Shown here: in pieces, positions 10,546-24,979 of the stretch
Position numbering within the stretch: the stretch's first letter is position 1
How the letters are laid out: each line of letters opens with the position of its first letter
Origin: Thermoanaerobaculia bacterium
GTDB lineage: Bacteria; Acidobacteriota; Thermoanaerobaculia; Multivoradales; JAHEKO01
DNA length: 64,000 nucleotides
Assembly: GCA_947259725.1 (NCBI GenBank)
Contig: CAMYNM010000003.1
Location: 171,968 to 235,967 of the forward strand
Direction: 5' to 3'
Position numbers and translations under genes: made by a program
Notes under the pieces: generated by a model
What the model was told of the DNA's origin: nothing
Databases searched by the model: none
What the model saw: the letters and a program-made list of their open reading frames with translations, nothing else

Positions 10546-12006
10546 CTAGCCGTGATCGACGAGGGTTCTGACGATCTCATCCTGCGCCCGCCTCGCCCTC
10601 CACACGCTTCGCACCCGATTGCACAAGATCGAAAACGCGTACACCTGTCCCGAATGCGCCTTGACGTAGCCGGACAGGGTCGAGACCCCGCTCAGAGAGC
10701 CGGTCTTGGCGAAGACCCGCTCGCGGTACGGAGGCTCCGCCAACCGCTTGCGCCAGCTCGCGTGCTCCTCGAGCCCACCGTAGGGAAGGGTCAGCACGAA
10801 CTCTCGCGCCCAGCGGTGTTCGAACATGTAGGCCAGAAGGCGGGTCAGGTGATTTGCCGAGAAACGATTTCCGCGGGACAGCCCCGAGCCGTCGGCGAGC
10901 TGGTAGCCGTCTGCGATTCCGACTTCGGCGAGGAACTCCTCGAGCACCGCCAGCCCGGCCGGCCACGTTCCGCTCCGACAGAGCCGGGCGCCGAGATGCT
11001 TGAGCAGGCTCTCGGCATAGAAGTTCTGGCTGCGGCGGTTGATGACCTCGAGCGAGGTCAAGAGATCGGTGCGATGCTCGGCGATACGGAACCAGCCTCC
11101 CCGCGGGAAGAGCTCGGAGCGCCGCGGACCGCCTCGGATCTCGACCCCCTCCTTTTCGAAAGCCTCGATCAAAGCCGCGCCGAAATACTCGACGGGATCG
11201 TCCACGCTCACCCAGACATCGACCGGCGCGATGCCCTTCAGGATCATGCCGTTGACCCGGATCACGTTTGTCCCGGACGTGCGATCCACGGCCACCCAGT
11301 GGTGCCGCGAAGAGGCGACCGTGCGCGCCCGGTTCTCGACCTCGAAAATCGGCGCGCCGCTCACGACCTCGACCCGCGCCGGGAGCCCGACTTGCGCCCC
11401 CGGGTAGATCCGAACCAGAACGCAGTTGTCGCTGTAGGAGAGCGCGGCCACCGGCGCCTCGTAGTGGCGCGCGAGCTGGTCGCGTGGCCAATCCGGATGC
11501 ACCCGCACATCGTCGAAGAGACCGTCAACCAGAAATAGATCGCCGGTGATCTCTTCGATGCCGAGCGAGCGCAGCGTCCGTGCCCAGGAGCGAAACACGG
11601 CGGTCGAATCGCCTTCGAAAAAACGACCCGAGATGTTCGGATCGCCCCCACCACGCACGGCCAGGTTCCCGACCAGCGTCTTGCCCCGGCGCTCGCCCTC
11701 GATGAAAACGCTGGTCTCGAAGAAGTGGCCCGGTCCGAGGCGGTCCAGGGCGGCCGCGGTGGTGATCAGCTTGGCATTGGAGGCGATGATCAGGGGCTCA
11801 TCCGCCTGGGAGGAGAAGACCGGCTCGCCCGAGGGAAGCGTGATCACGTGCACCGAAAGCTCCCGCGCGATCGACTTCGCCGCTCGGACCCTCGCGCCGA
11901 GCTTCGATGCCAGTTCGGTCTCGGCCGCCTGGGCGACGCCCGCGATGGCGAGGCCGACGGTCGCCAGGTGGAGGGCTCGGCGGAAAGCCACCGACCGCCG
12001 CGGCAT
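10546..12006 (-). CDS. dacB: D-alanyl-D-alanine carboxypeptidase/endopeptidase (PBP4, peptidase S13)
   Basis: Signal peptide. ASNAKLITTAAAL (SxxK), SYSDN, and KTGSL motifs typical of PBP4. Confidence 0.85.
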   Translation of the reverse strand: MPRRSVAFRRALHLATVGLAIAGVAQAAETELASKLGARVRAAKSIARELSVHVITLPSGEPVFSSQADEPLIIASNAKLITTAAALDRLGPGHFFETSVFIEGERRGKTLVGNLAVRGGGDPNISGRFFEGDSTAVFRSWARTLRSLGIEEITGDLFLVDGLFDDVRVHPDWPRDQLARHYEAPVAALSYSDNCVLVRIYPGAQVGLPARVEVVSGAPIFEVENRARTVASSRHHWVAVDRTSGTNVIRVNGMILKGIAPVDVWVSVDDPVEYFGAALIEAFEKEGVEIRGGPRRSELFPRGGWFRIAEHRTDLLTSLEVINRRSQNFYAESLLKHLGARLCRSGTWPAGLAVLEEFLAEVGIADGYQLADGSGLSRGNRFSANHLTRLLAYMFEHRWAREFVLTLPYGGLEEHASWRKRLAEPPYRERVFAKTGSLSGVSTLSGYVKAHSGQVYAFSILCNRVRSVWRARRAQDEIVRTLVDHG

Positions 12007-12938
12007 CAGGGGTTGCTTTTGTTCAGAAACCGGTAGAGCTCGCCGCGGGTCGAAAGCAGCAGCGCGGTCGATTCGTCGGTGGTCGTTATCAGGGTCTCCA
12101 TCGACTTCACGAACGCGTAGAAATCGCGTGAGTCCGCCGACCGGTTGTACGCCGCGGCGTAGATCTCGGTGGCTTCGGCGTCGGCGCGGCCGACGATCTC
12201 CTGAGCCTTTCTGTAGGCCTCCGACTCGATTTGCTTCAGCTCGCGATCGATGTCGCCGCGGATGCTGGCGGCCTCGCCCTCGCCCTCGGAACGGTAGCGC
12301 TCGGCGATACGCCGGCGCTCGGCGATCATCCGGTCGTAGACCTTGCGCCGGACCTCCTCGACATAGTTGATTCTCTTTAACTGCAAATCGAGGATCTCGA
12401 TGCCGAGATCGGAGGTGCGCCCCTGGGCGTTCCCCAGGATCTCGGAGCGAATCTGCTCGCGACCGATCTGGATCTCCTCGAGCACGGTCGCTGTCTCCGG
12501 CAGCGATTCATCCAAAGCCGGAACGCGATTGGTGGTGCGCACAAGCTCGACCAGCCGGTGCTTGGCGATGGCGTTGCGGGTCTCGCCTTCCAGAATGTCG
12601 CTCAGGCGACTCTGCGCCCGACGCTCGTCGCGCAGGCGTTGAAAGTAAAGCAGCGGATCGGTGATCCGCCAGCGGGCATAGGTATCGACGAAGATGAAGC
12701 GCTTGTCCTTGGTGGTGAGCTCAGTGGCGTCACCGTCCCATTCGAGGAAGCGTTTGTCGAACCGGTGGACCTTCTGAATGAACGGCAGCTTGAAGTGGAG
12801 ACCCGGAGTGTCGACGGGCTTACCGACCGGCTTGCCGAACTGGGTCTTGATGACCTGTTCGGTCTCCTGGACGACGAAGGCGGCGTTGGCCACGACCAGA
12901 AGCGCGATGACCAGGAGAACTACGGTCGCGGTCTTCAC
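12006..12938 (-). CDS. hflC: Protease modulator HflC (SPFH/band-7)
   Basis: N-terminal TM segment followed by an SPFH domain and a coiled-coil. Immediately downstream of hflK with a 4-nt overlap. Confidence 0.85.
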   Translation of the reverse strand: MKTATVVLLVIALLVVANAAFVVQETEQVIKTQFGKPVGKPVDTPGLHFKLPFIQKVHRFDKRFLEWDGDATELTTKDKRFIFVDTYARWRITDPLLYFQRLRDERRAQSRLSDILEGETRNAIAKHRLVELVRTTNRVPALDESLPETATVLEEIQIGREQIRSEILGNAQGRTSDLGIEILDLQLKRINYVEEVRRKVYDRMIAERRRIAERYRSEGEGEAASIRGDIDRELKQIESEAYRKAQEIVGRADAEATEIYAAAYNRSADSRDFYAFVKSMETLITTTDESTALLLSTRGELYRFLNKSNP

Positions 12939-13951
12939 GGGTTGGTTCCTCCCCCGCCGAGGTCGCCGAGCTTACCCTCGAGATCCAGCAGCGGCATGAC
13001 GCCCTCGAGCTGGTCGTCCAGAATGACTTTGCGCCCGGTCTTTGAGAGCACCTCGTTGACGGTTTCGAGGTAGATCCGCCGCCGGGTCACTTCCGGCGCC
13101 TTGCGGTACTCACCGTAGATGCTGTTGAAGCGATCCGCCTCACCCCGGGAGCGATTTACCCGGTCGAGCGCATAGCCCTCGGCGACCGAGACCGTCTTCT
13201 CGGCCTCACCGCGGGCTCGAAAAATGACCTTGTTGTATTCCGATTGCGCCTGGTTGATCTTGGTTTCACGCTCCTGCTCGGCCTGGTTGACCTCATTGAA
13301 CGAGGCCTTGACCTGATCCGGCGGGTTGACGTCCTGCAGGACGACCTGATCGACCTTGACGCCATTCTCGTACTGGTTGCAAAGCTCCTGGAGCCGCACT
13401 TCGACCAGATCGGCGACCTCTTGACGGCCGACGGTCAGCACCTCGTCGACCGTGCGATCGCCGACGACGTTGCGCATGACCGCTTCGCTCATGTCGCGAA
13501 GCGTCTCCTCGACGTTACGGACCCGAAACAGGAACTCTTGCGGATCGTCGATCCGGTACTGCACCACCCACTCGACCACCGCCGCGTTGAGGTCTCCGGT
13601 GAGCATGTTGGACTCACCCTGCAGGCTGCGCGGACCGCGATCGGCTCGCTGCGATTGAAACCCGAACTCCAGCTTGAGCTGCCGTTGCACCGGCAACTTG
13701 ATCACCTGTTCGATGCCGAGCGGCACCTTGAAATGAAGTCCCGGATCGGTCGAGCGAACGTAGGCGCCGAAGCGCAGCACCACGCCGACCTCCTCCGGAT
13801 CGATGGTGTAGATCGAGCTGAAGAGAACCACCCCCGCCAGGACCAGAAGCGCTACAAGGCGCAAGCGCCCAGCCGGAAGATCCAACTTGGGGAGTTTGGG
13901 CAGCGTCGGAAGCTCGACGATGTTTCTCGGTGGGCGGCCGGAGTTCGACAT
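12935..13951 (-). CDS. hflK: Protease modulator HflK (SPFH/band-7)
   Basis: TM segment then an SPFH domain (GVVLRFGAY...). Start set at MSNSGRPP (ATG 13949-13951). The longer upstream extension is R-rich. Confidence 0.85.
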   Translation of the reverse strand: MSNSGRPPRNIVELPTLPKLPKLDLPAGRLRLVALLVLAGVVLFSSIYTIDPEEVGVVLRFGAYVRSTDPGLHFKVPLGIEQVIKLPVQRQLKLEFGFQSQRADRGPRSLQGESNMLTGDLNAAVVEWVVQYRIDDPQEFLFRVRNVEETLRDMSEAVMRNVVGDRTVDEVLTVGRQEVADLVEVRLQELCNQYENGVKVDQVVLQDVNPPDQVKASFNEVNQAEQERETKINQAQSEYNKVIFRARGEAEKTVSVAEGYALDRVNRSRGEADRFNSIYGEYRKAPEVTRRRIYLETVNEVLSKTGRKVILDDQLEGVMPLLDLEGKLGDLGGGGTNP

Positions 13952-14119
13952 CTCTGTCAAGCTACCCCAGGAGCCGCCCGAACGCAACGCCGGGTGGTGT
14001 CCCAATAGCGACCCTGAGTACACCACCCGCCGTGAGGCTCGCTTGCGTGTCCGCCCGCTTCGGCCCATACTCGGATCGGTAGGCATTCACCCCTCCCCCG
14101 ACCCGACTGGAGGTGCGCC

Positions 14120-15412
14120 ATGAGGAGTGCTACGACGCCGACCGCTGGCAGCGGTCCGAATCTCCCTGCGACCCGAATCCGGGCGAAGGCGGGCAAAGCG
14201 GCGGCAAGAACTGCCGCCGAACCCAGTCTCAGTACCGAGTACCTCGGCGAGGAGCCTTCGAGCAGCCTCGGCGACGTGGAGCGCGGCGTGCGCGAACTCG
14301 TCGGCACGGTTCTCGACGCCGCTCGGATCTCGCCCCCGGCGCTCGTAAGCTCGGTTCTGGGCCCGCCGTGGACCTGGATTCCGCCCCACGAGCGCTACTC
14401 GGAGTTCAAGATCCTCGATCTGTGGAGATTGCGGCGGACGGTGCGGTTTCTGATCAACGCCGGCGTGCCCTCGCTGCCGATGGCGCCGCCCTCCCTCGGG
14501 CCTCCCCTTCTCGACAACCTCTTCTGGCATCCGACGCGGGTGCTCCAGCGGCCCGATCACAACGGCTGCTGCACGAGCTTTCCCGACGAGCAGTGGTTTT
14601 TCGTCAACGGCATCCTGACCGACGACAACGTGGCTCAAATCAACGCCGCCTGTCTGGCCGACCTCTTTCATCGCCCGATCACGCTGATCCAAAACAGCAC
14701 GGATGCGATCCTGATCGACCTTCTACAGTGCGCCCTGGGCCGCAGCCTGCACGACTCGACCGAGCCGCTCAAGGTCGCCTTTCCCGCGATCTACGACGCG
14801 CTCGTCGATCCCCACAAGCGGCGGGTGGTGGTCGTTTGCCACTCGCAGGGGACGATCATCATGGCGAATGTGCTGCGGTGGCTCTACCGTCTGGTCGACC
14901 GGCACAGGGCGCTGCACCGGCCCCGCCCGACGGCGACAGCCTCGACGGGGTTTGCCCCGCCCGAGCCGGTCTTTCCGGATCTGGGTCCTCTCGATCTCGA
15001 CGACTTCGAGCCCCTGGACCCGGCCGACCTCGGCAAGCTCGAGGTCTATGCCTTCGCCACCTGCGCGCAGAGGATGGGTTTCTACGGCGGGCCCCGTCGA
15101 GGCGCCCGGCGGCTGCCCTGGATCGAGCACTACGGCAACACCAACGACATCGTGGCCCGGCTGGGGATGCTCGCGCCGCGGGCCGAGCGCCGCCAGATCT
15201 CGATCGAGGGTCCGCGCTTCGAGCGCCCTGGCGCCTGGGGGCACCTGCTCAACGCCCACTATCTGACGCCCATCCGGGAGTGTCAGAAGCGAGGCCATCG
15301 CCGCGGCGGAAGCGGCAGCGCCGATCCTTTCGTTCTGGTCGACGCGGACGACGATCGGTCGGCGATACCCCGGCTCTTTGCCTACCTCAACGGCGGCACG
15401 CCCGACGCCTGA
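14120..15412 (+). CDS. Alpha/beta-hydrolase-fold protein, lipase-like (VVCHSQGT nucleophile elbow), uncharacterised
   Basis: ATG preceded by a GGAGGTG RBS. HSQG elbow after a beta-strand. Long N- and C-terminal extensions with no recognised family. Confidence 0.55.
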   Translation: MRSATTPTAGSGPNLPATRIRAKAGKAAARTAAEPSLSTEYLGEEPSSSLGDVERGVRELVGTVLDAARISPPALVSSVLGPPWTWIPPHERYSEFKILDLWRLRRTVRFLINAGVPSLPMAPPSLGPPLLDNLFWHPTRVLQRPDHNGCCTSFPDEQWFFVNGILTDDNVAQINAACLADLFHRPITLIQNSTDAILIDLLQCALGRSLHDSTEPLKVAFPAIYDALVDPHKRRVVVVCHSQGTIIMANVLRWLYRLVDRHRALHRPRPTATASTGFAPPEPVFPDLGPLDLDDFEPLDPADLGKLEVYAFATCAQRMGFYGGPRRGARRLPWIEHYGNTNDIVARLGMLAPRAERRQISIEGPRFERPGAWGHLLNAHYLTPIRECQKRGHRRGGSGSADPFVLVDADDDRSAIPRLFAYLNGGTPDA

Positions 15413-15683: not shown

Positions 15684-18224
15684 ATGGCGCCGCGCTTCGA
15701 CTCCGACAACCTGCGTCTCGAGCTCGGGGTCGCCGACCTCCTCGACACCTCGCTTTTTCGGCACATCGGCTTCGGACAGCGCGGCGGCTACGAGCGCATG
15801 TGGGTGGGCCAGGCGATCCACAGCCGCTATCAAGAGGAAGCGCAGCGCGAAGACGCCACCTACCGCGCCGAAGTGCCGATTCGGGTGGCCTTCGAGCATC
15901 GGGGCTGGGAGGTCACGATTCGAGGGCGAATCGACGGTCTGCGCCGGGAGGCAGTCGGGGATTCGGGCGCCGATCGCACGATACTCGAGGAGATCAAGTC
16001 GGTGCGCCGGGGAAGCGAGCTGGCGGACGCCACGCGGGCGATCTACCAGCGCCAGGCGCTTCTCTACGCCTGGATGTTGAGTCTCGGCGACGCCGTACGG
16101 TCCGACGCTTCGGAAGGTGAGAACGGGGCCCTGCCGGCGGGCCTCCTACCGGCGACGAGCATCGCGGCCGAGCTCGTCCTCATCGAGATCGGATCGCACC
16201 AGGTTCGCCGCGAGCCCCTGGACCTCGACCTCGAGTCGATCGACGCCTCGGTGCGCCGCCGCCTCAACAGCCTGATCCACGACCATGACCGCAACCGCGA
16301 GATTGCCCTCGAACGGCGCGAGGCCGGCGAGCGGCTGAGCTTCCCCTACTCCGAGCTGCGCGCCGGCCAGGACGACATCGTCGAAGCGGTCGCGACCGCC
16401 CTCGCGCAGCAGGAGCATCTCCTGGTGGAAGCGCCCACCGGGCTGGGAAAGACGGTCGCGGCGCTCTATCCGGCGCTCAAGTACGCGCTCGAGAACCAGA
16501 AGCGGGTTTTCGTGCTGACCGCCAAGACCCTGCAACAGGACATGGCCACGGCGGTGCTCGAGCTGCTCAACGAAGACGGCTCGTTCCGGTCGCTGCGCCT
16601 GCGCGCGAAGGCCAAGATGTGCGCCAACGAAGAAGTCATCTGCCACGAGGAATTCTGTCGCTACGCCAAGGACTACCACTTGAAGCTCCATCGCTCGCGC
16701 ATCGTGGACGACCTGATGCTGCGCTATCCGACGCTTCTTCCGGACGGCATCTTTTCTCTGGCGCGCGACGAGGAGGTCTGTCCCTTCGAGGTCAGCCTCG
16801 AGCTCTCGGGCCGCTCCCAGGTCGTGGTGTGCGACTACAACTACGCGTTTGACCCGTACGTCGCGCTGTCCGAGTTCGGCAAGGACAACGACCTCCAGGA
16901 CACCGTGCTGGTGGTCGACGAGATCCACAACCTGGTGGACCGCGGCCGGGGCTACTACAGCCCGTCGCTCTCGACCACCAAGGCGCTCGCCGCCGCCGAG
17001 TTCCTGGTCGCGACATCCCATCGCTCGCCGCAGCGGGCCGCCAAGGCCTGCCACGAGCTCGCCGCCTGGATCGCCGACACCGTCGATCGGGTGCTCGCCG
17101 ACCTCGGGGGTGCGGCCGGCGGCGGCGGACCGAGCCCGGAGCGCGAGGCGGCCGAGACGGATTTCCCCGAAGATGATCTCTGGGACCTGCGGCCGGACTT
17201 CGACGACGCCTTCGTCGACTACGTCGAGTACCAGCGGGAGACCTCCACCTACCGGGCCGAGGATCCGTTCGTGGATCTCTACTTCGATTTTCTCCGCTTT
17301 CTGGACGGTCTGGTCCTGGCGCGCTCCGACGCCTTCAGCCAGTACGTCAAACGCCGAGGCGAACGGCGGGCGGTCAACATCCTGTGCAAGGACCCGAGCC
17401 GGTTCATCGGCGGGGTCATCAACCGGACCCACTCGACCATCGGGCTCTCGGCGACCTTGTCGCCGACCGAGTTCTACCGAGACCTTCTGGGCTTTGATCG
17501 CGAGCGAACCGTGGCCAAGACCATCGCCAGCCCGTTTCCCCACGAGAATCGCTGCGTGGTGATCGACGACTCCGTCTCCACGCTATGGCGCGAGCGCGAG
17601 AGCAACTACCAGCCGATCGCCGAAAACCTGTCGAGACTGGCGGCGGCGGTGCCGGGCAACTGCCTGGCTCTTTTTCCCAGCTATGCCTTCATCGACCGGG
17701 TCGCTCCCGGGCTCAAGCCCACCGGCAAGCGGGTTCTGGTGCAGGGGCGCGACGACAGCGACCAGACCCGGCAGGAGGTGCTCGAGCTGCTGCGCACACC
17801 GATCGCCGGCGACAATCTGCTCCTGGCGGTGGCGGGTGGCGTGTTCGCCGAGGGCGTCGACTACCCCGGCGAAATCCTCAAGGCGGTCGCGATCGTCGGG
17901 CCCTGCCTGCCGGCGGTGACCCTCGAACGAGAGCTCCTCAAGATCTACTACCAGGAGCGCTTCGAGCGCGGCTTCGAGTACGCCTTCGTGGTGCCGGGGA
18001 TGACGCGGGTGGTGCAAGCAGCCGGGCGGCTGATCCGCTCCTCCGACGACACCGGGGTCATCGCCCTTCTGGACCAACGCTTCCTCAAGACCCCCTACCG
18101 CGACCACCTGCCGGAGGACTGGTGGCAGGGAGGCCGGCTCGCCGACCTGATCGCAGCGCCCGGTGAGGCCGCGGCCCGGTTCTTCGCGGAGCTGCGGAAC
18201 GCAGCGGGCCTGGGTCGGCTTTAG
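15684..18224 (+). CDS. DinG/XPD-family Fe-S SF2 DNA helicase with an N-terminal PD-(D/E)xK (RecB/Cas4-like) nuclease domain
   Basis: N-terminal domain carries GQAIHSRYQ (GxxxHxxxQ), RGRIDGL and ILEEIKS (ExK) motifs. Helicase part has Walker A VEAPTGLGKT, DEAH-like VDEIHN, a four-Cys Fe-S insertion (CANEEVICHEEFC...CPFE...VVVCDY), and the C-terminal RecA-like motifs of DinG. Confidence 0.8.
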   Translation: MAPRFDSDNLRLELGVADLLDTSLFRHIGFGQRGGYERMWVGQAIHSRYQEEAQREDATYRAEVPIRVAFEHRGWEVTIRGRIDGLRREAVGDSGADRTILEEIKSVRRGSELADATRAIYQRQALLYAWMLSLGDAVRSDASEGENGALPAGLLPATSIAAELVLIEIGSHQVRREPLDLDLESIDASVRRRLNSLIHDHDRNREIALERREAGERLSFPYSELRAGQDDIVEAVATALAQQEHLLVEAPTGLGKTVAALYPALKYALENQKRVFVLTAKTLQQDMATAVLELLNEDGSFRSLRLRAKAKMCANEEVICHEEFCRYAKDYHLKLHRSRIVDDLMLRYPTLLPDGIFSLARDEEVCPFEVSLELSGRSQVVVCDYNYAFDPYVALSEFGKDNDLQDTVLVVDEIHNLVDRGRGYYSPSLSTTKALAAAEFLVATSHRSPQRAAKACHELAAWIADTVDRVLADLGGAAGGGGPSPEREAAETDFPEDDLWDLRPDFDDAFVDYVEYQRETSTYRAEDPFVDLYFDFLRFLDGLVLARSDAFSQYVKRRGERRAVNILCKDPSRFIGGVINRTHSTIGLSATLSPTEFYRDLLGFDRERTVAKTIASPFPHENRCVVIDDSVSTLWRERESNYQPIAENLSRLAAAVPGNCLALFPSYAFIDRVAPGLKPTGKRVLVQGRDDSDQTRQEVLELLRTPIAGDNLLLAVAGGVFAEGVDYPGEILKAVAIVGPCLPAVTLERELLKIYYQERFERGFEYAFVVPGMTRVVQAAGRLIRSSDDTGVIALLDQRFLKTPYRDHLPEDWWQGGRLADLIAAPGEAAARFFAELRNAAGLGRL

Positions 18225-18460
18225 TCGCCCGAAGAGCTCTGTTGCCTTCGCCCGTACCTCTCGAGGTGCTCCTCGACCAGGCGGTGAACGCCGATCCGCT
18301 GGAGCTCGGCCGAGAGCACCAGGATCTGATTGGCCTTGAGCGGGTGATCTTTGTAGATCACCGCCAGCACCTTCTTGAGCGCCGCTGACAGCTCGGGGTC
18401 CAGGGCCTCGTCTTTTCCGCTCACGACCGGAAACTCAAGAACGGCTCTCGGCGGCTTCAT
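18221..18460 (-). CDS. Small hypothetical protein (79 aa) downstream of the ferredoxin
   Basis: ORF overlaps the ferredoxin gene by 26 nt on the same strand. No motif recognised. Coding status uncertain. Confidence 0.3.
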   Translation of the reverse strand: MKPPRAVLEFPVVSGKDEALDPELSAALKKVLAVIYKDHPLKANQILVLSAELQRIGVHRLVEEHLERYGRRQQSSSGD

Positions 18461-18803
18461 GCATCTGCTCCGGATCGTAGTCGTAGAGCAACGACCGCAC
18501 CGTCAGGCTGGGCGCGACCTCGACCCCCTCTTCCCAGCCCCACATGTCGATGGTCTCCCAGGGACAGTAGCGAGCGCACAGCTGACAACCGATGCAGCGC
18601 TCGAGATCGACTTCGACCAGCTTCATGAAATCCGGATGCTTGGGGCCGGGCACGATCTCGATGCAGTCGACCGGGCAGAAGGCGATGCAGGCCTCGCAGC
18701 CCGTGCAACCGGTCTGATCGATCACCGCCACCTGCTTGGGCGGCTTCGGCCGCGGCGCCTTGTCGATCTCGATCTTGGTCTCGTAGGGAAACTCGTCAGC
18801 CAT
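18435..18803 (-). CDS. Dicluster 4Fe-4S ferredoxin
   Basis: Two CxxCxxCxxxCP motifs (CTGCEACIAFCP and CIGCQLCARYCP). Confidence 0.85.
   Translation of the reverse strand: MADEFPYETKIEIDKAPRPKPPKQVAVIDQTGCTGCEACIAFCPVDCIEIVPGPKHPDFMKLVEVDLERCIGCQLCARYCPWETIDMWGWEEGVEVAPSLTVRSLLYDYDPEQMHEAAESRS

Positions 18804-22111: not shown

Positions 22112-22115
<4 letters not shown>
21135..22115 (-). CDS. MauE/DoxX-like integral membrane protein with a C-terminal soluble domain
   Basis: Four predicted TM helices with a conserved Cys pair (GSACGCFGN) as in MauE. Its ATG overlaps the uvrA stop (ATGA). Lies upstream of the thioredoxin-like gene. Confidence 0.6.

Positions 22116-24979
<2,864 letters not shown>

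What the first reader, a model, noticed from the sequence alone, without database searches (positions are those of the whole stretch)
15684..18224. Single polypeptide fusing a RecB/Cas4-like PD-(D/E)xK nuclease domain to a DinG/XPD Fe-S helicase
The first ~200 aa carry nuclease motifs GQAIHSRYQ, RGRIDGL and EEIKS. The remainder is a complete SF2 DinG-type helicase with a four-Cys Fe-S insertion. Described bacterial DinG variants carry either no extra domain or a DnaQ-like exonuclease, so a Cas4/RecB-type nuclease N-terminus is an uncommon architecture. It might be a repair nuclease-helicase or a stand-alone defence-type effector. Its neighbour is a lipase-like hydrolase, and no methyltransferase or other defence genes are adjacent.
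Basis: partly seen in the sequence, partly recalled or inferred. Interest (0 to 1): 0.6.

Follow-up and report, generated by a model that had tools for sequence, protein, structure and literature searches.

The report
EndoDinG-type nuclease-helicase, a known family
The gene does encode one protein joining a RecB/Cas4-like DNA-cutting domain to an iron-sulfur XPD/DinG DNA-unwinding motor, but this "EndoDinG" architecture was named in 2025, solved and assayed in 2026, and is common, so this is an ordinary new member.

Summary

The architecture is not novel. A profile of the protein and its relatives aligns end to end with PDB 9KQH, Finegoldia magna "EndoDinG" (E = 7e-132; model TM-score 0.80). 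Cheng named that subgroup in 2025, and Li et al. characterised it in 2026 as a Mn2+-preferring endonuclease coupled to an ATP-driven 5'-3' helicase. The window protein keeps 20 of the 22 mapped FmaDinG residues identically, plus the D75 equivalent (D84) and the fourth Fe-S cysteine. Two changes are conservative; only R10 differs (A17). H46, E63, R82, D84, E103, K105, Q124 and Y128 are invariant in 47 diverse relatives.

The family is abundant: more than 2,390 proteins and at least 576 species genomes, the closest all Acidobacteriota/Thermoanaerobaculia. The gene sits among housekeeping genes. No defence genes were found among the ORFs scanned from 9.7 to 25 kb. The in vivo role, probably DNA repair, is inferred. 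Verdict: new member of a known kind, low interest.

The parts
15684..18224 (+). Complete EndoDinG-type gene (846 aa plus stop)
   Evidence: It is a single ORF with GC3 0.88. The family profile aligns end to end with FmaDinG 9kqh_A at E 7.4e-132. The AlphaFold2 model has pLDDT 81.5, and its best Foldseek match is 9kqh_A (E 4e-54, target TM-score 0.80).
15684..16223 (+). N-terminal PD-(D/E)xK (RecB/Cas4/MGME1-like) endonuclease domain, aa 1-180 (approximate boundary)
15807..16067 (+). Catalytic core motifs, aa 42-128: H46 (GQAIH), E63, R82/D84 (GRIDG), E103/K105 (EEIKS) and Q124...Y128 (QxxxY)
   Evidence: All eight residues are invariant in 47 diverse full-length relatives of 27-60% identity. 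They map onto the FmaDinG residues H40, E54, R73, D75, E88 and K90, whose alanine substitutions nearly abolish nuclease activity (PMC13650095).
15741..15803 (+). Probable mobile 'gate' segment of the nuclease domain, aa 20-40
   Evidence: This segment has low model confidence (pLDDT below 50 at aa 24-40). [quoted passage not shown] This correspondence is an inference.
16083..16160 (+). Clade-specific disordered insertion in the nuclease domain, aa 134-159
   Evidence: The segment is 27 residues here against about 7 in most relatives. pLDDT is below 50 at aa 139-148.
16230..16334 (+). Long linker helix joining nuclease and helicase, aa 183-217
   Evidence: The secondary structure of both models shows a helix at aa 183-217.
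16335..16598 (+). Motor domain 1, first part, with Walker A APTGLGKT (aa 250-257, nt 16431-16454)
   Evidence: Pfam DEAD and ResIII match here. G253, G255, K256 and T257 are invariant.
16599..16823 (+). Fe-S cluster domain, aa 306-380, with C313, C320, C325 and C366
   Evidence: The cysteines are conserved in 46-47 of 47 relatives. Three map to FmaDinG C282, C289 and C294. C366 corresponds to the Cys of FmaDinG's VCPLEL motif (C333) in the profile alignment. Pfam DEAD_2 matches at E 1e-9.
16824..16973 (+). Motor domain 1, middle part, with DEIH box (aa 412-415, nt 16917-16928)
   Evidence: D412, E413 and H415 are invariant. D412 maps to FmaDinG D378, the residue mutated to make the ATPase-dead enzyme (PMC13650095).
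16974..17408 (+). Arch domain, aa ~431-575 (approximate boundaries)
   Evidence: Pfam HBB (the XPD helical and beta-bridge domain) matches at E 2.9e-10, above its cutoff. The FmaDinG Arch residues that contact DNA, D475, F478 and K482, map to D531, F534 and R538.
17604..18122 (+). Motor domain 2, aa ~641-813
   Evidence: Pfam Helicase_C_2 matches aa 650-813 at E 6e-34. The FmaDinG translocation residues R578, P677, F698 and R733 map to R638, P743, F764 and R799.
18123..18221 (+). C-terminal tail, aa 814-846, with a conserved aromatic pair (F833, F834); absent from the crystallised FmaDinG
   Evidence: A tail of 19-51 aa follows W813 in 45 of 47 relatives. Position 833 is F in 42 of 47, and position 834 is F or W in 40 of 47. 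The FmaDinG chain (748 aa) ends one residue after the equivalent Trp. The model predicts a helix at aa 826-845. Its function is unknown.

Best explanation
The gene encodes an EndoDinG: an XPD-family, [4Fe-4S]-containing SF2 DNA helicase with a RecB/Cas4/MGME1-like PD-(D/E)xK endonuclease fused to its N-terminus.

The mechanism is inferred by homology to Finegoldia magna FmaDinG. The two RecA-like motor domains load on a 5' single-stranded tail and translocate 5'->3' using ATP. The Fe-S and Arch domains separate the duplex. The 3'-ended strand is threaded through a gated opening into the N-terminal nuclease. There H46, E63, D84 and E103 bind the metal (Mn2+ preferred in FmaDinG) and K105 binds the scissile phosphate. 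DNA is cut endonucleolytically, and cutting reaches deep into duplex DNA only when the motor runs.

Homology, fold, conservation of the residues tested in FmaDinG, and housekeeping context are shown here. The activities of this particular protein are inferred. So is its cellular role, which is most likely chromosomal DNA repair or processing of ends, flaps or stalled forks rather than immunity.
For: - **Homology to FmaDinG.** The profile of 25 relatives aligns with 9kqh_A in one stretch, profile positions 11-779 against chain residues 4-747, at E 7.4e-132. The single sequence gives E 1.1e-90.
- **Whole-protein fold.** The full-length AlphaFold2 model (pLDDT 81.5) has 9kqh_A as its best Foldseek match (E 4e-54, target TM-score 0.80, 813 alignment columns). 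Archaeal and eukaryotic XPDs come next, then E. coli DinG.
- **Residues characterised in FmaDinG.** Of the 22 wild-type FmaDinG residues mapped, 20 are identical in the window protein (H40/E54/R73/E88/K90; K249, K278, K280; C282/C289/C294; D378; D475, F478; R578, P677, F698, R733 among them). K482->R538 and I679->V745 are conservative, F575->W635 stays aromatic, and only R10 becomes A17. D84 stands where the crystallised D75A mutant has alanine, and C366 matches the fourth Fe-S cysteine (residue roles from PMC13650095).
- **Family-wide conservation.** H46, E63, R82, D84, E103, K105, Q124, Y128, K256, D412, E413, H415 and C366 are invariant in 47 relatives of 27-60% identity.
- **Distribution.** At least 576 species genomes carry a relative, and the 80 closest are almost all labelled Acidobacteriota.
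- **Context.** The neighbours are housekeeping genes: S13 peptidase, two Band_7 genes, ferredoxin, glyoxalase, thioredoxin-like, MauE/DoxX and UvrA. The closest relatives share this order.
- **Repair association elsewhere.** Distant homologs (29% identity, collinear from H46 to W814) on two Legionella plasmids overlap a GIY-YIG nuclease gene. They sit among Ku, LigD, UdgX, DinB, UmuD/Y-family polymerase and SRAP genes.
Against: - No activity of this protein has been measured.
- Identity to FmaDinG is only 33% over 740 aligned residues.
- A profile of the N-terminal domain alone does not retrieve 9kqh by sequence, finding only Cas4 4ic1 at E 2.8e-4. The link between the two nuclease domains therefore rests on the full-length alignment, shared catalytic residues and the fold.
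- The FmaDinG substrate-binding residue R10 is A17 here and is variable in the family (R in 14 of 47).
- The in vivo function is unknown even for FmaDinG (PMC13650095).
- Synteny, including the nearby UvrA, holds in only 6-23 of 53 related loci. No conserved partner gene was found.
- No LexA-box-like motif lies upstream, so damage-inducibility is not supported.
Confidence: 0.85

Rival explanations
1. It is a stand-alone anti-phage or anti-plasmid defence effector, a helicase-nuclease that degrades invading DNA (in the manner of Hna or CasDinG-HNH).
For: A PADLOC model labelled typeIV_DinG (PDLC01439) matches aa 217-815 at E 3.5e-105. Helicase-nuclease fusions are common among defence proteins (general knowledge). 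Distant homologs occur on Legionella plasmids. The in vivo role of the family is untested, and its describers list defence against mobile elements as one possibility (PMC13650095).
Against: The PADLOC match covers only the generic helicase core. Other defence models score weakly. The gene lies in a housekeeping neighbourhood that the closest relatives share, on chromosome-size contigs of 1.3 and 5.1 Mb. Relatives are found in at least 576 species genomes. The pattern looks like vertical inheritance of a core gene, not a patchy defence island. No methyltransferase, cas or other defence genes were found among the ORFs scanned between about 9.7 and 25 kb, and the window has no CRISPR array. On the Legionella plasmids the neighbours are repair and translesion genes, not defence genes. 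The Foldseek match to the defence protein Hna is weak (E 5e-11, TM 0.41).
Confidence: 0.07
2. It is a plain XPD/DinG-type repair helicase whose N-terminal domain is a degenerate, non-catalytic DNA-binding or regulatory module, analogous to the pseudo-exonuclease domain of pExoDinG.
For: The N-terminal domain scores below the curated cutoffs of Pfam PDDEXK_1 and NCBIfam cas4. The R10 equivalent is lost. The domain carries a 27-aa disordered insertion.
Against: Every metal-binding and phosphate-binding residue (H46, E63, D84, E103, K105) and the QxxxY motif are invariant across 47 diverse relatives. Such conservation is not expected for a dead domain. In FmaDinG the same residues are needed for activity (PMC13650095).
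Confidence: 0.04
3. It is a CRISPR-associated component, either a CasDinG of a type IV system or a Cas4-helicase fusion acting in spacer acquisition.
Against: The window has no CRISPR array. None of the neighbouring ORFs scanned matches a cas family. CasDinG proteins have a degenerate Fe-S module without cluster ligands (PMC13650095), whereas all four cysteines are conserved here. Cas4 proteins carry their own Fe-S cluster (PMC11981726; the four-Cys ligands are from my own knowledge), whereas the N-terminal domain here has no cysteine. The cas4 score is 15.9 bits against a cutoff of 65.
Confidence: 0.01
4. It is an annotation artefact: two adjacent genes (a nuclease and a helicase) joined by an unnoticed frameshift, or a chance ORF in GC-rich DNA.
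For: Long spurious ORFs are common in this 66% GC sequence. One example is the 465-aa antisense ORF at 16146-17543.
Against: The ORF is continuous with GC3 0.88. More than 100 relatives have the same length and are collinear over 96-100% of the protein. The crystallised FmaDinG is itself a single chain with both domains.
Confidence: 0.005

Closest known systems
EndoDinG subgroup of DinG-like helicases; type example Finegoldia magna FmaDinG (PDB 9KQH; Li et al. 2026, PMC13650095; subgroup named in Cheng 2025, PMC11981726)
   Same: The domain order is the same: PD-(D/E)xK nuclease, linker, motor domain 1 with inserted Fe-S and Arch domains, then motor domain 2. The two proteins align end to end (E 7e-132), and the model has a target TM-score of 0.80. 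The catalytic H/E/D/E/K residues, the four Fe-S cysteines, Walker A, the DE(A/I)H box, and the Arch and translocation residues are all conserved.
   Different: Identity is only 33%. The R10 equivalent is A17. The nuclease domain carries an extra 27-aa disordered insertion. A conserved 33-aa C-terminal tail with an aromatic pair is absent from FmaDinG. The host clade (Thermoanaerobaculia-like Acidobacteriota) is not among the orders named in the papers, although another acidobacterial order, Acanthopleuribacterales, is. The activities of this protein have not been measured.
Archaeal and eukaryotic XPD/Rad3 (e.g. Thermoplasma acidophilum XPD, PDB 4A15, 2VSF, 9P55)
   Same: It shares the four-domain Fe-S helicase core. 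After FmaDinG, XPDs are the best sequence and structure matches (E 1e-53 to 6e-54; target TM-score 0.71-0.75). The Pfam HBB Arch-domain model matches above its cutoff. NCBIfam rad3 is the top-scoring model.
   Different: XPD has no N-terminal nuclease. The rad3 TIGR00604 score of 162.6 is below its cutoff of 246.95. XPD works within TFIIH or with partner nucleases, whereas here the nuclease is built in.
E. coli DinG and YoaA
   Same: They are bacterial Fe-S XPD-family 5'-3' helicases.
   Different: They have no nuclease domain. Similarity is much weaker: DinG 6FWR gives E 1.5e-19 and target TM-score 0.57. The equivalog models score far below cutoff (115.7 against 598 for DinG; 130.8 against 680 for YoaA). 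No LexA box was found upstream here.
ExoDinG (Staphylococcus aureus DinG, PDB 8ZEF/9II8)
   Same: It also has an N-terminal nuclease fused to a DinG-like helicase, with nuclease action coupled to translocation (PMC13650095).
   Different: Its nuclease is a DnaQ/DEDD 3'-5' exonuclease, not a PD-(D/E)xK endonuclease. TIGR01407 scores 106.9 against a cutoff of 547.7. The match to 8zef is weak (E 1e-21).
RecB-family PD-(D/E)xK nucleases: Cas4 (4IC1, 7MI4), MGME1, EXO5, Dna2, and the AddA/AdnAB/RecB nuclease domains
   Different: Cas4, EXO5, Dna2 and AddA contain Fe-S clusters of their own (PMC11981726). Here the only Fe-S cysteines lie in the helicase, and the nuclease domain has none. The motors of AddAB, RecBCD and Dna2 are SF1 rather than SF2/XPD (established knowledge). 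In those enzymes the nuclease is C-terminal or lies in a different position.
CasDinG (type IV CRISPR helicase; PDB 7XEX, 8E2W, 8S35)
   Same: It has a DinG-like SF2 core, and a PADLOC model labelled typeIV_DinG matches the helicase part.
   Different: CasDinG lacks Fe-S ligands and the N-terminal PD-(D/E)xK domain, and it is encoded next to csf genes (PMC13650095). None of this applies here. Structural similarity is low (target TM-score 0.52-0.63).

Membership tests
EndoDinG (DinG-like helicase with N-terminal PD-(D/E)xK endonuclease) | N-terminal domain with a PD-(D/E)xK fold of the RecB/Cas4/MGME1 type | tested here: met
EndoDinG (DinG-like helicase with N-terminal PD-(D/E)xK endonuclease) | Catalytic H, E, D and E metal ligands plus the Lys after beta-4 (FmaDinG H40, E54, D75, E88, K90), and R73 | tested here: met
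   The window equivalents are H46, E63, D84, E103, K105 and R82. All are invariant in 47 diverse relatives.
EndoDinG (DinG-like helicase with N-terminal PD-(D/E)xK endonuclease) | Substrate-binding Arg in alpha-1 (FmaDinG R10) | tested here: not met
   The window has A17 at this position. The position is variable across the family (R in 14 of 47), so it does not define the family.
EndoDinG (DinG-like helicase with N-terminal PD-(D/E)xK endonuclease) | XPD-like core: two motor domains with Walker A and DExH, an Arch domain, and an Fe-S domain with a CCCC motif | tested here: met
   Pfam DEAD_2, HBB and Helicase_C_2 match. K256, D412, E413 and H415 are invariant, and C313, C320, C325 and C366 are conserved in 46-47 of 47 relatives.
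EndoDinG (DinG-like helicase with N-terminal PD-(D/E)xK endonuclease) | Full-length collinear homology and structural similarity to the type structure 9KQH | tested here: met
   The profile gives E 7.4e-132 over chain residues 4-747. Foldseek gives E 4e-54 and target TM-score 0.80.
EndoDinG (DinG-like helicase with N-terminal PD-(D/E)xK endonuclease) | Mn2+-preferring ssDNA endonuclease activity and ATP-dependent 5'-3' helicase activity, coupled to each other | not testable with these tools
   This was measured biochemically for FmaDinG only (PMC13650095).
Cas4 (TIGR00372) | Score above the curated model cutoff | tested here: not met
   The score is 15.9 bits against a cutoff of 65.
Cas4 (TIGR00372) | Fe-S cluster within the nuclease domain (four Cys ligands, from my own knowledge) | tested here: not met
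   Residues 1-312 contain no cysteine. That Cas4 contains an Fe-S cluster is stated in PMC11981726.
Cas4 (TIGR00372) | Genomic association with cas1/cas2 and a CRISPR array | tested here: not met
   None of the neighbouring ORFs scanned matches a cas family. The window has no repeat array.
CasDinG (type IV CRISPR) | Degenerate Fe-S module without cluster ligands, encoded next to csf genes | tested here: not met
   The four Cys are conserved, and no csf genes or array are present. Csf4 models score only 19.6-46.8 bits; the one with a listed cutoff, TIGR03117, scores 24.9 against 400.
Canonical DinG / YoaA (NF008729, NF053712) | Score above the equivalog cutoff | tested here: not met
   DinG scores 115.7 against 598, and YoaA scores 130.8 against 680.
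ExoDinG (TIGR01407, NF005981) | N-terminal DnaQ-like 3'-5' exonuclease domain | tested here: not met
   Only the helicase C-terminal part matches (aa 578-809), at 106.9 bits against a cutoff of 547.7. The N-terminal fold is PD-(D/E)xK.
XPD/Rad3 (TIGR00604) | Score above the subfamily cutoff, and no fused nuclease | tested here: not met
   The score is 162.6 bits against a cutoff of 246.95, and a fused nuclease is present. The helicase core nevertheless resembles XPD more than E. coli DinG.

The most novel reading that the evidence does not exclude
In Thermoanaerobaculia-like Acidobacteriota, EndoDinG could be a vertically inherited core repair enzyme that does strand resection or flap and fork processing through an XPD-type motor. 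It would be recruited by a partner (for example SSB or a clamp or repair factor) through the conserved C-terminal aromatic tail, which the crystallised FmaDinG lacks. In distant relatives on Legionella plasmids, the association with Ku/LigD, translesion polymerases and a coupled GIY-YIG nuclease would then point to a family-wide role in double-strand-break or lesion processing that has not been described.
Probability: 0.25. Interest if true: 0.4.

Novelty: new member of a known kind. Interest (0 to 1): 0.15.

Why it matters
The residual value is modest:

- The family is far more abundant than the published survey implies, and it dominates in uncultured Acidobacteriota. That survey took one genome per order from KEGG.
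- The helicase core is nearer to archaeal XPD than to E. coli DinG.
- Most members carry a conserved C-terminal aromatic tail that the solved protein lacks.
- Plasmid-borne relatives sit in repair islands, which gives a testable lead for the still unknown in vivo role.

Tried and rejected
- **Exact look-up of the window protein.** It returned no contig, so I annotated the neighbours from ORFs, GC3 and Pfam instead.
- **Genome scan with the diverse alignment A2.** This biased the 80 returned loci towards Acidobacteriota.
- **N-terminal profile against PDB sequences.** It did not recover 9kqh and found only Cas4 4ic1. The link was made by the full-length profile and by fold comparison.
- **Upstream regulation.** There was no sigma-70-like promoter on the gene's strand and no inverted repeat. 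No LexA box of six known types was found. No GAAC/GTTC-type motif recurred upstream in 59 related loci. SOS control is therefore unsupported.
- **Conserved partner genes.** The Band_7, ferredoxin, thioredoxin, MauE and UvrA synteny holds in only 6-23 of 53 loci. It is absent in another lineage, so it reflects shared ancestry rather than a functional operon.
- **Legionella partners.** The GIY-YIG, Ku and UdgX proteins have no homolog in the window or in the acidobacterial loci.
- **CRISPR or defence reading.** There are no arrays and no defence neighbours. The strong PADLOC typeIV_DinG hit covers only the generic helicase core.
- **Phage hits.** The Listeria and Enterococcus 'phage' records repeat the scores of the host records for the same genera. 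I did not treat them as evidence of a phage-borne gene.
- **'Lipase-like' neighbour.** It has no significant Pfam, NCBIfam or PDB match.


Full report
**Observation.** Window 15684-18224 on the + strand is one uninterrupted ORF of 846 codons starting with ATG. GC at the third codon position is 0.88, the signature of a real gene in this ~66% GC sequence. The overlapping antisense ORFs are by-products of the high GC content. Four cysteines lie at C313, C320, C325 and C366. An identical protein and more than 100 relatives of 58-83% identity cover 96-100% of the sequence collinearly, and the N-terminus MAPRFD is conserved. The start codon is therefore correct and there is no hidden frameshift.

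**What the two halves are.** Pfam places Helicase_C_2 (E 6e-34), DEAD_2, DEAD and the XPD Arch model HBB (E 2.9e-10) on residues 224-813. The first 220 residues alone give only a borderline PDDEXK_1 hit (E 3.9e-4, 20.9 bits against a cutoff of 22) and a weak cas4 hit. I therefore tested the fold directly.
- An AlphaFold2 model of residues 1-215 has pLDDT 86.7.
- This is the RecB/Cas4 branch of the PD-(D/E)xK superfamily.
- The full-length model (pLDDT 81.5, pTM 0.77) matches 9kqh_A best (Foldseek E 4e-54, target TM-score 0.80, 813 columns). XPD from Thermoplasma and from TFIIH comes next (target TM-score 0.6-0.75), then E. coli DinG (0.57), S. aureus DinG and CasDinG.

**It belongs to a described family.** The best PDB sequence match is 9kqh_A (E 1.1e-90). 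With a profile of 25 relatives the match becomes one end-to-end alignment, profile positions 11-779 against chain residues 4-747, at E 7.4e-132.

9KQH is Finegoldia magna DinG, published as the first structure of the "EndoDinG" subgroup (Li et al., Cell Mol Life Sci 2026, PMC13650095). The subgroup is defined as DinG-like helicases with an N-terminal PD-(D/E)xK nuclease and was named in a 2025 review (Cheng, PMC11981726). The paper reports the following for FmaDinG:
- Mn2+-preferred ssDNA endonuclease activity.
- 5'-3' helicase activity.
- ATP-dependent digestion into duplex regions, which an ATPase-dead mutant loses.
- A gate in the nuclease domain, proposed from comparing the crystal structure with an AlphaFold3 model of the DNA complex.
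- Direct DNA contacts by the Arch domain.
- Near-loss of nuclease activity in H40A, E54A, R73A, D75A, E88A and K90A.

I rebuilt the FmaDinG sequence from the printed alignment and mapped its characterised residues onto the window protein:

| FmaDinG | Window protein | Role |
|---|---|---|
| H40, E54, R73, D75, E88, K90 | H46, E63, R82, D84, E103, K105 | Nuclease catalysis and substrate binding |
| K249, K278, K280 | K281, K309, K311 | DNA binding (motor domain 1 and Fe-S domain) |
| C282, C289, C294 | C313, C320, C325 | Fe-S ligands |
| D378 | D412 | ATPase |
| D475, F478, K482 | D531, F534, R538 | Arch contacts with DNA |
| F575, R578, P677, I679, F698, R733 | W635, R638, P743, V745, F764, R799 | DNA binding and translocation |
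| R10 | A17 | Substrate binding (the only non-conservative change) |

The fourth Fe-S cysteine, C366, corresponds to the Cys of FmaDinG's VCPLEL motif (C333) in the profile alignment. The R10 position is variable across the family (R in 14 of 47).

In an alignment of 47 full-length relatives of 27-60% identity, several residues are invariant. These relatives were drawn from a search of 1.84 billion cluster representatives.
- In the nuclease domain: H46, E63, G81, R82, D84, E103, K105, Q124 and Y128.
- In the helicase: K256, D412, E413, H415 and C366.
- The other three cysteines are present in 46 of 47.

The membership test for EndoDinG is met on every sequence and structure criterion. Only the activities are untested.

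**How common is it, and where does it occur?**
- The word-indexed search found more than 2,390 relatives. Many carry a precomputed PF12705 PDDEXK_1 hit in addition to DEAD_2 and Helicase_C_2.
- The N-terminal domain alone finds 208 clusters at 50% identity. The full-length hits are 750-890 aa with the domain at the N-terminus. The many short hits may be contig-end fragments, which I could not verify.
The 80 best are almost all labelled Acidobacteriota, Thermoanaerobaculia, Holophagales or "Ca. Multivoradales", at up to 78% identity.
- The window therefore most likely comes from an uncultured Thermoanaerobaculia-like acidobacterium.
- This clade is not in the published list of EndoDinG-bearing orders, which names Acanthopleuribacterales among Acidobacteriota. 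That is a taxonomic extension only.

**Context.** The neighbours, in order along the window, are as follows:
- S13 D-Ala-D-Ala carboxypeptidase (10546-12006, -).
- Two Band_7/SPFH genes (12006-14086, -).
- A 430-aa ORF of unknown family (14120-15412, +).
- EndoDinG.
- A 79-aa ORF and a 2x[4Fe-4S] ferredoxin (18221-18803, -).
- A glyoxalase-fold protein, a thioredoxin-like protein, a MauE/DoxX membrane protein and UvrA (22112-24979, -).

Relatives of 62-66% identity on 1.3-Mb and 5.1-Mb contigs share the same order from the S13 peptidase through to UvrA and PBP1. Each of these genes is found in only 6-23 of 53 loci with full flanks, and not at all in another lineage. The arrangement is inherited synteny, not a functional operon. 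No conserved partner emerges. No methyltransferase, cas or other defence genes were found among the ORFs scanned, and the window has no CRISPR array. The strong PADLOC hit (typeIV_DinG PDLC01439, E 3.5e-105) covers only the helicase core, aa 217-815. CasDinG proteins lack Fe-S ligands and sit beside csf genes, and neither applies here. No promoter on the gene's strand, inverted repeat or LexA-box-like element was found upstream, either here or recurrently in 59 related loci.

**A lead on function from distant relatives.** tblastn against plasmids found collinear homologs. One example has 29% identity and E 9e-111, aligned from H46 to W814 with the H, E, GRxDG and EEIK motifs conserved. On two Legionella plasmids the gene overlaps a downstream GIY-YIG nuclease gene. 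It lies among Ku, LigD, a UdgX-family protein, DinB, a Y-family polymerase with UmuD, and an SOS-response-associated peptidase. That is a DNA-damage island, which supports a repair role for the family by association. In Listeria and Enterococcus the neighbours are housekeeping genes. None of the Legionella partners occurs in the window or in the acidobacterial loci. The "phage" hits from Listeria and Enterococcus repeat the scores of the host records for the same genera and are not good evidence of phage carriage.

**Mechanism.** Homology, fold, conserved catalytic and DNA-contact residues, and intact Fe-S ligands are shown here. The rest is inferred from FmaDinG.
1. The motor domains bind a 5' ssDNA tail and translocate 5'-3' on ATP hydrolysis (Walker A K256, DEIH D412).
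2. The Fe-S and Arch domains act as the unwinding wedge.
3. The 3'-ended strand enters the N-terminal nuclease through a mobile gate. This is probably aa ~20-40, which is the low-confidence segment in both models.
4. A metal bound by H46, E63, D84 and E103, together with K105, cuts the strand endonucleolytically. Extensive degradation depends on the motor.

The cellular role is not known for any member. DNA repair or processing is the best-supported guess, and I put it at about 0.6.

**Differences from the solved example.**
- Identity to FmaDinG is 33%.
- The nuclease domain has a 27-aa disordered insertion (aa 134-159) where most relatives have about 7 residues.
- A 33-aa C-terminal tail (aa 814-846) carries a conserved aromatic pair. 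F833 is F in 42 of 47 relatives, and position 834 is F or W in 40 of 47. The tail is present in 45 of 47 relatives but missing in FmaDinG.
- The helicase core is closer to archaeal XPD than to E. coli DinG by sequence (E 1e-53 against 1.5e-19) and by structure.

**Verdict.** The claim of an uncommon, undescribed architecture does not hold. This is a new, uncharacterised member of the known EndoDinG family in an ordinary chromosomal setting. Interest is low.

Noticed in passing
window 14120-15412 (+): This 430-aa ORF has strong coding signal (GC3 0.84) and lies between the Band_7 pair and the EndoDinG gene. It has no significant Pfam, NCBIfam or PDB match (Abhydrolase_6 only at E 2.6). It carries a VVVCHSQGTII segment resembling a GxSxG nucleophile elbow. 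It is absent from all 53 related loci with full flanks, so it is a lineage-specific insertion of unknown function.
   Followed up: partly
window 18123-18221 (aa 814-846 of the protein): The C-terminal tail is predicted to be helical and carries a conserved aromatic pair. F833 is F in 42 of 47 relatives, and position 834 is F or W in 40 of 47. The tail is present in 45 of 47 diverse relatives but absent from the crystallised FmaDinG. It may be a partner-binding motif.
   Followed up: partly
L084 6890-10886 and L086 6890-10868 (Legionella plasmids pLlyPCM2298_2 and pLA01-117_113k): Distant EndoDinG homologs (29% identity) overlap a downstream GIY-YIG nuclease family gene by 8 nt. They sit among Ku, LigD, UdgX-family, DinB, Y-family polymerase/UmuD and SRAP genes. 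This is a plasmid-borne DNA-damage island, and neither EndoDinG paper I read mentions it.
   Followed up: partly
window 22112-24979 (-): A UvrA gene (955 aa) lies about 4 kb downstream on the opposite strand. The closest relatives share this arrangement, but only 6 of 53 related loci do. It is probably inherited synteny rather than a functional link.
   Followed up: yes
window 18221-18803 (-): A small 79-aa ORF of unknown family partly overlaps a 122-aa 2x[4Fe-4S] ferredoxin, and both converge on the 3' end of the EndoDinG gene. The pair is conserved in the closest relatives (13-15 of 53 loci). The 79-aa ORF has no family match.
   Followed up: partly
window 16083-16160 (aa 134-159): A low-complexity, low-confidence insertion lies between the QxxxY helix and the next strand of the nuclease domain. 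It is 27 aa here, about 7 aa in most relatives and up to 47 aa in one.
   Followed up: partly
phage-collection hits H16-H21 (Listeria and Enterococcus 'phage' records): Unannotated records labelled as Listeria or Enterococcus phages carry a homologous gene, with scores identical to those of the Listeria host records. They look like packaged or mis-assigned host DNA rather than phage genes.
   Followed up: no
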